The position numbers and the translations under genes are program-made. Below are positions 23,425 through 24,075 of a stretch of 47,021 nt of DNA, in pieces; the first letter of the stretch is position 1; each line of letters opens with the position of its first letter. A model generated the notes under the pieces. It worked only from the letters and a program-made list of their open reading frames with translations. It was not told the origin of the DNA and did not search any database. Source of the stretch: Escherichia phage ChristineMuster_Bas80; the sequence record PQ850597.1, one strand, 5' to 3'.

Positions 23425-23455
23425 AAAAAAGCCCCGATAGGGGCTTTGTTTTATT
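23425..23455. terminator. Rho-independent terminator (bidirectional candidate)
   Basis: agcccc-gata-ggggct hairpin followed by ttgtttt, A-run on the other side. Confidence 0.65.
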
Positions 23456-23660
23456 CTTGCGGTGGATCTGGTAGCGGCATCCAGTGTGTTACGTCATCCA
23501 AGATATTTCCTGATAAATACGTGAAAGCCCTATATTTTTTGTAATCAATTGGATTTACAACCCAGTTCCAATATGCGGCTACGATTTCACCTTGACTAAA
23601 TACCAATAACATTTGGGTTTCATCCGGCATCCTTTCACTGCACTTAATCCACTGTCTCAT
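23451..23660 (-). CDS. DUF551-like phage protein
   Basis: MPDET...VTHWMPLPDPP pattern recalled for DUF551. Confidence 0.5.
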   Translation of the reverse strand: MRQWIKCSERMPDETQMLLVFSQGEIVAAYWNWVVNPIDYKKYRAFTYLSGNILDDVTHWMPLPDPPQE

Positions 23661-23800
23661 ATCACCTTATCCTCATCAAAAATCACACCAATCACACGAA
23701 GCAAGTCTTTCGCCATGCGCTCTGCTTCTTCGTAATCGTAACCTGCATCAACATACAGTTCAGTGTAGAAAATCAGGTCTGCTTTTGTTTGTTCGTTCAT
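23657..23800 (-). CDS. Small hypothetical protein (47 aa)
   Basis: ATGA-coupled on both sides within the three-gene minus cassette. Confidence 0.3.
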   Translation of the reverse strand: MNEQTKADLIFYTELYVDAGYDYEEAERMAKDLLRVIGVIFDEDKVI

Positions 23801-23991
23801 TTCTTGTCGCCACTTTTAACCAGCGCCCAAACCAGTGCCGCAACCCACCCAATAAAACTCCATCCAACAAGAATATTCAGTACGCAGATTGCGGTTGTAT
23901 TTGTGTGCTTTCGTTGTAATGCCACAAATGACGGTAGAAGATAAGCAAATATCACCAATCCGGCGAAAAGCAACAAAATAACAACATCCAT
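23797..23991 (-). CDS. Superinfection immunity-like small membrane protein
   Basis: Two hydrophobic segments with ILVGWSFIGWVAALVWAL resembling the Imm_superinfect family pattern. Confidence 0.55.
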   Translation of the reverse strand: MDVVILLLFAGLVIFAYLLPSFVALQRKHTNTTAICVLNILVGWSFIGWVAALVWALVKSGDKK

Positions 23992-24026
23992 AACTCACCT
24001 CATTCATATCTCGTTTCGATGACTTG

Positions 24027-24075
24027 AATCTACATCACCACCTCGCAGGTGTCAACACCACTGAGATGATATAAT
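24027..24075. promoter_or_regulatory. Back-to-back promoters: minus-strand TTGACA-17-TAGATT and plus-strand extended -10 TGaTATAAT
   Basis: Reverse complement of 24050-24055 TTGACA, 17-nt spacer, reverse complement of 24027-24032 TAGATT; plus-strand TGaTATAAT at 24067-24075. Confidence 0.6.

What the first reader, a model, noticed from the sequence alone, without database searches (positions are those of the whole stretch)
23451..24055. Superinfection-immunity cassette inserted on the opposite strand between major tail and chaperone/tape-measure genes
A three-gene minus-strand operon (Imm_superinfect-like membrane protein 23797-23991, 47-aa ORF, DUF551-like protein) is driven by a perfect TTGACA-17-TAGATT promoter (24055-24027). 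It terminates at the hairpin shared with the major tail gene (23425-23455), and the genes are ATGA-coupled. It interrupts an otherwise co-linear tail operon and has its own strong promoter, the pattern of a moron-type accessory cassette. The immunity-like protein may exclude superinfecting phages or modulate the inner membrane.
Basis: partly seen in the sequence, partly recalled or inferred. Interest (0 to 1): 0.5.

Follow-up and report, generated by a model that had tools for sequence, protein, structure and literature searches.

The report
Phage Imm-like accessory operon between tail genes
A lytic Salmonella/E. coli phage carries a small backward-facing three-gene operon between its tail genes. 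The first gene is a relative of the phage T4 protein that blocks a second phage from injecting DNA, but the operon is a standard, already-annotated feature of this phage group, so the finding is real and ordinary.

Summary
Three minus-strand genes overlap by ATGA: 23797-23991, 23657-23800 and 23451-23660. A TTGACA-17-TAGATT promoter (24055-24027) lies upstream, and a bidirectional terminator (23428-23447) shared with the major tail gene lies downstream.

- **Family calls hold.** Gene 1 is PF14373 (66 bits) and aligns to T4 Imm (34% identity). Gene 3 is DUF551 (78 bits).
- **The genes are real.** pN/pS is 0.09 for Imm and 0.06 for the 47-aa gene.
- **The promoter is conserved.** Its hexamers are invariant in all 40 loci compared, while the spacer varies.

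- **Not a one-off insertion.** An opposite-strand cassette sits at this site in every Skatevirus-like relative examined and in Roufvirus.
- **Modular content.** The layout is [91-aa][97-aa periplasmic][Imm] 47-aa [NinX] DUF551. The 47-aa gene is the constant member; Imm is optional (27 of 36 distinct relatives).
- **Not a prophage.** The group is described as lytic, so this is not a prophage-expressed moron.
- **Already annotated.** GenBank and RefSeq records of relatives already label these genes 'immunity to superinfection' and 'DUF551'.

Exclusion activity is inferred from homology and has not been tested. Verdict: a new member of a known kind, of low interest.

The parts
24027..24055 (-). 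Sigma-70-type promoter TTGACA-17-TAGATT that drives the cassette
   Evidence: Found by the consensus scan. It is one of only two such sites in the window, against 0.57 expected. The hexamers are invariant in 40 of 40 loci while the spacer varies. Function is inferred; no transcript data exist.
23995..24001 (-). Shine-Dalgarno sequence GAGGTGA, 3 nt upstream of the Imm start codon
   Evidence: Read directly from the sequence.
23797..23991 (-). Gene for a 64-aa T4 Imm-family (PF14373) protein with two hydrophobic spans
   Evidence: Pfam 66 bits against a cut-off of 27.9. phrog_1039 'immunity to superinfection', E=1.2e-23. BLASTP against T4 Imm gives 34% identity over 62 aa, E=6e-12. Hydrophobic spans at residues 1-26 and 32-59, pI 9.5. 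pN/pS 0.09.
23657..23800 (-). Gene for a 47-aa acidic protein (phrog_17424, function unknown), the constant member of the cassette
   Evidence: phrog_17424, E=8e-37. Present in 39 of 40 loci at 94% mean aa identity, pN/pS 0.058. Also present in the same-site cassette of Roufvirus. pI 4.1. AF2 predicts a helical hairpin, pLDDT 85. Start codon overlaps the Imm stop as ATGA.
23451..23660 (-). Gene for a 69-aa DUF551 (PF04448) protein, carrying one of at least 16 alleles found at this position
   Evidence: Pfam 78.4 bits against a cut-off of 22. The protein ends are conserved and the core is hypervariable across relatives. The gene is missing from 7 of 70 genome-reduced mutants of the related phage seszw. 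Start codon overlaps the 47-aa gene's stop as ATGA.
23428..23447 (.). Bidirectional intrinsic terminator shared by the major tail gene (+) and the cassette (-)
   Evidence: AAAGCCCC-GATA-GGGGCTTT with an A-run on one side and a T-run on the other. Free energy -16.4 and -16.1 kcal/mol, z-scores -3.9 and -4.5. The motif occurs once in 37 of 41 loci and more than once in 2 others.
24067..24075 (+). Extended -10 element TGATATAAT of the divergent plus-strand promoter for the chaperone/tape-measure genes, placed back-to-back with the cassette promoter
   Evidence: Three TGATATAAT sites in the window against 0.53 expected. Conserved next to the minus-strand promoter in 41 of 41 loci. Annotated as a promoter in the GenBank record of the relative vB_EcoS_ASO78B.

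Best explanation
This is the standard accessory operon of Skatevirus-like lytic siphoviruses. It is a short unit read by the host RNA polymerase, placed back-to-back with the promoter of the chaperone/tape-measure genes, and it ends at the terminator of the major tail gene.

Its first product is a 64-aa inner-membrane protein of the T4 Imm family. By analogy with T4 Imm, it most likely makes the infected cell refuse DNA entry from phages that adsorb later, leaving their DNA outside the cytoplasm.

The two downstream products are small acidic soluble proteins of unknown role, translated by coupling to the gene ahead. They are most likely host-interaction factors and not part of the exclusion step.
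- The 47-aa helical hairpin is the conserved core of the cassette.
- The DUF551 protein is an exchangeable, hypervariable module.

Shown here: gene reality, family membership, and conservation of the promoter, terminator and site. Inferred: membrane location, timing of expression, and the exclusion activity itself.
For: - **Family membership.** PF14373 well above its cut-off, and phrog_1039. Direct alignment to T4 Imm with the shared motif G..Y.LP.F.AL.R...I...W..GW...W. tblastn also reaches T4-type imm genes. Both proteins have two hydrophobic spans separated by a short basic loop.
- **What T4 Imm does.** It acts against superinfecting phage DNA entry, according to the T4 record note and PMC7677548 and PMC9409062.
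- **Real genes.** Purifying selection on Imm and the 47-aa gene.
- **Transcription signals.** Promoter hexamers are invariant in 40 of 40 loci with a variable spacer. There is a strong terminator and a good Shine-Dalgarno sequence.
- **Conserved site.** The same-site cassette is found across Skatevirus-like and Roufvirus genomes. In Jerseyvirus SE2 an Imm homologue is likewise divergent from the chaperone/tape-measure genes.
- **Precedent.** HK97 gp15 is a small inner-membrane exclusion protein encoded inside a tail operon (PMC3594210).
- **Not the lysis system.** A complete lysis cassette lies elsewhere, at 7946-9383.
Against: - No experiment on any Skatevirus-like Imm homologue turned up in the literature searches.
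- Identity to T4 Imm is only 34%, and the T4 C-terminal tail is missing.
- Imm is absent from 9 of 36 distinct relatives, so it is dispensable to the group.
- T4 and these siphoviruses deliver DNA differently, so the target of exclusion may differ.
- Expression timing is unknown. The promoter is a consensus match with a -10 hexamer of only 4 of 6.
- The two downstream genes have no functional assignment.
Confidence: 0.6

Rival explanations
1. The Imm-like membrane protein does not block DNA entry. It instead protects the infected cell envelope from damage by later-adsorbing phages (lysis from without, 'secondary traumatization'), or it tunes lysis timing in a holin- or antiholin-like way.
For: The protein is small, has two hydrophobic spans and ends in a charged C-terminus. 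[quoted passage not shown]
Against: The window has a complete canonical lysis cassette elsewhere: endolysin, holin 8675-8914 and spanin. The best family match is Imm, not a holin family. The cassette sits away from the lysis genes.
Confidence: 0.15
2. The cassette is mainly a host-takeover or counter-defence operon. Its important member is the constant 47-aa acidic protein. DUF551 and NinX are exchangeable specificity modules, and Imm is a frequent passenger.
For: - The 47-aa gene is present in 39 of 40 loci and in Roufvirus cassettes that lack Imm.
- It is present in all 70 genome records of phage seszw from a genome-reduction study, while the DUF551 gene is present in only 63 (PMC9825161).
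- DUF551 and NinX have conserved ends and hypervariable cores. The DUF551 core averages 22% identity and falls into 16 allele classes, in phages whose Imm and 47-aa proteins are 92-94% identical.
Against: None of the three proteins has a significant match in PADLOC, the PDB or the fold searches. Retention in the mutants may only reflect a lack of usable CRISPR targets in a 144-bp gene, or polar effects. Allelic diversity can arise from ordinary mosaic recombination without any arms race.
Confidence: 0.2
3. The ORFs and signals are chance features of a non-coding spacer between two tail transcription units.
For: The ORFs are short (47-69 aa), and the promoter and terminator were found by consensus scans, which give several hits in shuffled sequence.
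Against: Pfam matches are far above their cut-offs. pN/pS is 0.06-0.09. ORF lengths, ATGA overlaps and promoter hexamers are conserved across 40 loci.
Confidence: 0.01

Closest known systems
Phage T4 Imm (immunity to superinfection membrane protein, PF14373)
   Same: Same Pfam and PHROG family. 34% identity over 62 aa, with shared motifs. Both have two hydrophobic spans separated by a short basic loop, and both are encoded by a lytic phage.
   Different: 64 aa against 83 aa, and the T4 C-terminal tail is missing. The carrier is a small O-antigen-dependent siphovirus, not a myovirus. No Spackle partner is present in the window. Activity is untested.
The same cassette in Skatevirus, Swiduovirus, Caminolopintovirus and relatives (for example vB_Eco_ZCEC08, VSt472, swi2, BASEL Bas77-81)
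   Same: Same site, strand, promoter and terminator, and the same gene families. The genes are already annotated as 'immunity to superinfection' and 'DUF551 domain-containing protein'.
   Different: The combination found here (64-aa Imm, the 47-aa gene and this particular DUF551 allele) is not covered at 80% or more by any single record in the phage collection. It is a new mosaic of known modules. One metagenomic contig, L009, has the same layout.
HK97 gp15 moron (YebO-like exclusion protein in the tail operon)
   Same: A small inner-membrane protein gene sitting among tail genes next to the tape-measure gene. It has its own promoter and terminator, and it blocks genome entry without touching the receptor (PMC3594210).
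   Different: It belongs to an unrelated family: the Pfam scan found no YebO match. In HK97 the gene is expressed from a prophage, whereas here the phage is lytic. The cassette here faces the opposite way and holds three genes.
Jerseyvirus (SE2, SETP3) Imm homologue
   Same: About 41% identity, and likewise transcribed divergently from the chaperone/tape-measure genes.
   Different: It is followed by exonuclease and methylase genes, not by the 47-aa and DUF551 genes.
Lambdoid nin/ea-region small proteins (P22 NinX = DUF2591; DUF551 proteins such as E. coli CPS-53 YfdS and the Ea22 V2 C-terminus)
   Same: The same domain families occur in the cassette of this phage group. Their function is unknown there too (PMC10834534, PMC4776307).
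   Different: Here they sit in a lytic phage's tail region, and they show conserved ends with hypervariable cores.

Membership tests
T4 Imm family (PF14373 Imm_superinfect) | Sequence matches the family model above its curated threshold | tested here: met
   66 bits against a cut-off of 27.9, E=2.8e-18. phrog_1039, E=1.2e-23.
T4 Imm family (PF14373 Imm_superinfect) | Direct similarity to the founding member, T4 Imm | tested here: met
   BLASTP gives 34% identity over 62 aa, E=6e-12 pairwise. tblastn against 2.3 Gb of phage DNA gives E=4e-4.
T4 Imm family (PF14373 Imm_superinfect) | Two hydrophobic membrane segments separated by a short basic loop | tested here: met
   Kyte-Doolittle spans at residues 1-26 and 32-59, with the loop QRKHTNTT. 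T4 Imm has spans at 1-35 and 39-64.
T4 Imm family (PF14373 Imm_superinfect) | Made early in infection from a host-polymerase promoter | tested here: inconclusive
   A conserved sigma-70-type promoter is present, but no transcript or timing data exist.
T4 Imm family (PF14373 Imm_superinfect) | Blocks DNA entry of superinfecting phage | not testable with these tools
   This needs plating, adsorption and DNA-entry assays.
Moron (as described in PMC3594210) | Own promoter and terminator | tested here: met
   Promoter at 24055-24027 and terminator at 23428-23447, both conserved. This rests on sequence evidence only.
Moron (as described in PMC3594210) | [quoted passage not shown] | tested here: met
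   Cassette 41.4%, against major tail gene 53%, chaperone gene 49% and genome 46.5%.
Moron (as described in PMC3594210) | Extra DNA that is present in one genome and absent from related ones | tested here: not met
   An opposite-strand cassette is present at this site in all 39 related loci and in Roufvirus. Only individual genes come and go. Among 36 distinct relatives, Imm is in 27, NinX in 13 and the 97-aa gene in 22.
Moron (as described in PMC3594210) | Expressed from a repressed prophage to benefit the lysogen | tested here: not met
   The related RefSeq genome lists no integrase or repressor, and the group is described as lytic.
DUF551 (PF04448) | Sequence matches the family model above its curated threshold | tested here: met
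   78.4 bits against a cut-off of 22, covering profile positions 1-68 of 68.
HK97 gp15 / YebO family | Sequence similarity to YebO-like proteins | tested here: not met
   The Pfam scan at E<=1 returned only PF14373 and three weak unrelated families.
T4 Spackle (periplasmic partner of Imm) | A Spackle homologue in the cassette | tested here: not met
   The window has no signal-peptide gene in the cassette. The 97-aa signal-peptide protein of relatives shows no similarity to T4 Sp (hhalign probability 0.4%).

The most novel reading that the evidence does not exclude
The cassette may not be mainly an immunity device. On this reading it is a conserved host-interface operon whose key member is the constant 47-aa acidic helical-hairpin protein. 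That protein was never lost in 70 genome records of phage seszw from a genome-reduction study. The hypervariable cores of the DUF551 and NinX proteins would then be specificity surfaces shaped by an arms race with host defences. If so, this would give the first functional handle on two large families of unknown function.
Probability: 0.15. Interest if true: 0.5.

Novelty: new member of a known kind. Interest (0 to 1): 0.2.

Why it matters
Phages of this group are widely proposed for therapy and food biocontrol. An active exclusion gene would affect how they behave in cocktails and in mixed infections. The comparison also gives a clean natural series for testing what a T4 Imm-type protein does in a siphovirus: relatives with Imm, without it, with a periplasmic 97-aa protein in its place, or with both. 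Otherwise the finding adds nothing new, because the genes and signals are already annotated in related genomes.

Tried and rejected
- **PADLOC scan of the three proteins.** Only a weak match confined to the membrane segments (2TM-TIR, E=0.004), treated as hydrophobic-composition noise.
- **PDB sequence searches.** Nothing for any of the three proteins.
- **AF2 on single sequences.** The DUF551 model had pLDDT 53, so I did not use it for fold search. The 47-aa protein gave a confident helical hairpin. Foldseek against the PDB and against viral models found no hit at E<=1e-3, as expected for a two-helix hairpin.
- **Rfam on 21900-24200.** Only the tRNA-Met passed.
- **Is the relatives' 97-aa signal-peptide protein a Spackle analogue?** It has the same length, a signal peptide and two cysteines, but shows no sequence similarity. 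I keep it only as an untested analogy.
- **Is the 'genes 55-59' deletion reported for phage seszw this cassette?** No. The cassette lies at about 13 kb in that genome and is kept in nearly all mutants. The paper's supplement was not available.
- **The original T4 Imm papers (PMC237878, PMC250924).** Neither is held. Statements about T4 Imm rest on the GenBank note, secondary papers and general knowledge.
- **Large protein-database searches.** I did not run them, because they would not have changed the verdict.

Full report
**What is there.** Between the major tail gene (22703-23419, +) and a DUF6246 tail-chaperone-like gene (24096-24812, +; Pfam E=1.8e-73) lie three minus-strand ORFs. They are 23797-23991 (64 aa), 23657-23800 (47 aa) and 23451-23660 (69 aa), and each overlaps the next by ATGA. 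A GAGGTGA Shine-Dalgarno sequence precedes the first ORF. The consensus scan finds TTGACA-17-TAGATT at 24055-24027 on the minus strand. It also finds an 8-bp G+C-rich hairpin at 23428-23447, with an A-run on one side and a T-run on the other. The hairpin folds at -16.4 kcal/mol on the plus strand and -16.1 on the minus strand, with z-scores of -3.9 and -4.5. The only correction is that the -10 hexamer is 4 of 6, so the promoter is good but not perfect.

**Is it more than chance?**
- Only two TTGACA-N17-TAnnnT sites occur in 47 kb on both strands, against 0.57 expected.
- ORF1 matches PF14373 at 66 bits (cut-off 27.9), and ORF3 matches DUF551 at 78 bits (cut-off 22).
- ORF2 matches only phrog_17424, of unknown function.
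- Across related loci, pN/pS is 0.09 for ORF1 and 0.058 for ORF2.
- The DUF551 gene was not tested this way, because its alleles are too divergent.

**What the window is.** The region is 90-93% identical to lytic siphoviruses of Salmonella, E. coli and Shigella classed as Skatevirus, Swiduovirus or Caminolopintovirus. Their genomes are 45-48 kb, so the window is probably a whole genome. A related RefSeq genome lists no integrase or repressor. The group is described as lytic and dependent on O-antigen.

**Comparison with relatives.** I compared the window with 39 related loci. Three of these are genomes fetched twice, so 36 are distinct.
- Every locus has an opposite-strand cassette at this site, 670-1370 bp long.
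- The layout is [91-aa C-terminal membrane protein] [97-aa signal-peptide protein] [Imm] 47-aa [NinX/DUF2591] DUF551. Junctions are mostly ATGA.
- Among the 36 distinct relatives, the 47-aa gene is in 35, DUF551 in 34, Imm in 27, the 97-aa gene in 22 and NinX in 13.
- The promoter hexamers are invariant in all 40 rows, while the spacer varies.
- Roufvirus phages of Vibrio and Klebsiella have the same-site cassette. One carries a 99-aa Imm followed by the 47-aa gene and an HNH gene. Another starts directly with the 47-aa gene.
- In Jerseyvirus SE2 an Imm homologue is also divergent from the chaperone/tape-measure genes.

The cassette is therefore an old, fixed feature of the lineage with exchangeable contents. 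It is not an insertion in this genome. GenBank and RefSeq records already label these genes, and one record already annotates both promoters and the terminator.

**The Imm-like protein.**
- It aligns to T4 Imm at 34% identity over 62 residues, with shared motifs.
- Both proteins have two hydrophobic spans and a short basic loop.
- tblastn finds relatives in 1772 phage records, including T4-type phages, Jerseyvirus and mycobacteriophages.
- T4 Imm keeps superinfecting DNA out of the cytoplasm, according to the T4 record note and PMC7677548 and PMC9409062.
- By homology, the same job is the best guess here. I found no experiment on a siphovirus homologue.
- A holin-like role is less likely, because a full lysis cassette lies at 7946-9383.

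**The other two genes.** The 47-aa protein is acidic (pI 4.1) and is predicted as a helical hairpin (pLDDT 85). It has no informative sequence or fold neighbours.

The DUF551 protein is a different case.
- Its ends are 71-78% identical across relatives, but its core is only 22% identical.
- It falls into 16 allele classes among 38 loci. In the same phages, Imm and the 47-aa protein are 92-94% identical.
- NinX shows the same pattern.
- DUF551 has no known function.

**Evidence from a genome-reduction study.** The Skatevirus seszw was subjected to CRISPR-based genome reduction (PMC9825161), and its genome records are in the phage collection. The 47-aa gene is present in all 70 of those records, while the DUF551 gene is present in only 63. 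DUF551 is therefore dispensable for growth in the laboratory. The 47-aa gene was never lost, but that could have technical causes.

**Architecture.** The cassette promoter sits back-to-back with a plus-strand extended -10 element, TGATATAAT (24067-24075), that faces the chaperone/tape-measure genes. A second copy of this two-way module lies at 22623-22666, upstream of the major tail gene. Both copies are conserved in nearly all loci. The major tail gene is thus its own promoter-to-terminator unit, flanked by two backward-facing accessory slots.

**Comparison with known systems.** The protein is a member of the T4 Imm family by every sequence test I could run. The cassette resembles a moron in having its own signals and a lower G+C. 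It fails two defining moron features: absence from relatives, and expression from a prophage (PMC3594210). HK97 gp15 is the closest functional analogy, being an exclusion protein encoded among tail genes, but it belongs to an unrelated family.

**Verdict.** This exact combination of modules is not covered at 80% or more by any single phage record, so it is a new mosaic of known parts. It is a new member of a known kind, of low interest.

Noticed in passing
window 22623-22666: A second copy of the back-to-back promoter module lies just upstream of the major tail gene: TTGACA-17-TAGATT on the minus strand and TGATATAAT on the plus strand. It is conserved in 38 of 41 loci. The major tail gene therefore looks like a single-gene unit bracketed by two two-way promoters.
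   Followed up: partly
window 22061-22137 (tRNA-Met, minus strand) and the equivalent position in L001-L020: The slot downstream of that twin promoter holds a variable tRNA set in relatives: Met, Ile(AAT), Arg+Ser, Arg+Met, or none. It is a second variable accessory slot on the opposite strand.
   Followed up: partly
window 22138-22620, minus strand: About 480 nt between the twin promoter and the tRNA-Met have no convincing ORF and no Rfam family. There are only sub-threshold tmRNA-like hits (27.9 bits against a cut-off of 47), and the fold z-score is -1.9. ARAGORN calls a 'tmRNA' at the equivalent place in swi2 (L003 1562-1936), which is probably a false call built on the tRNA.
   Followed up: partly
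window 27203-28078 (minus strand) and 28210-29580 (plus strand): A 291-aa T5orf172/MUG113 protein, resembling a homing endonuclease, is encoded on the opposite strand right after the tape-measure gene. It is followed by a 456-aa ORF with no Pfam match. The related genome NC_054648 goes straight from the tape-measure gene to the minor tail genes.
   Followed up: partly
L005 3329-3622, L018, and 20 other distinct relatives; not in the window: Many relatives carry a 97-aa protein as the first cassette gene, either in place of Imm or in addition to it. It has a signal peptide and two conserved cysteines (phrog_2315, unknown function). The pairing of a membrane protein with a periplasmic one recalls T4 Imm plus Spackle, but there is no sequence similarity to Spackle.
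   Followed up: partly
DUF551 and NinX genes of L001-L040: Both proteins have conserved N- and C-terminal ends and hypervariable cores. The DUF551 core averages 22% identity and the NinX core 39%, in phages that are otherwise about 90-95% identical. This fits module swapping at conserved ends, or diversifying selection.
   Followed up: partly
phage collection records of Salmonella phage seszw (MZ3752xx-MZ3753xx, OL9647xx): About 70 genome records from a genome-reduction study are in the collection, with genomes down to 36 kb. They work as a ready-made dispensability map for this phage group. The DUF551 gene is missing from 7 of the 70, and the 47-aa gene from none.
   Followed up: partly
L027 5393-5668 and L034: Two relatives carry an extra 91-aa gene with a C-terminal membrane segment at the head of the cassette. 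It brings its own copy of the two-way promoter module, so L034 has three modules.
   Followed up: no
window 9384-9725: A 113-aa ORF right after the lysis cassette matches a PHROG annotated as 'tail assembly chaperone' (phrog_1158, E=5.6e-37), far from the tail genes.
   Followed up: no
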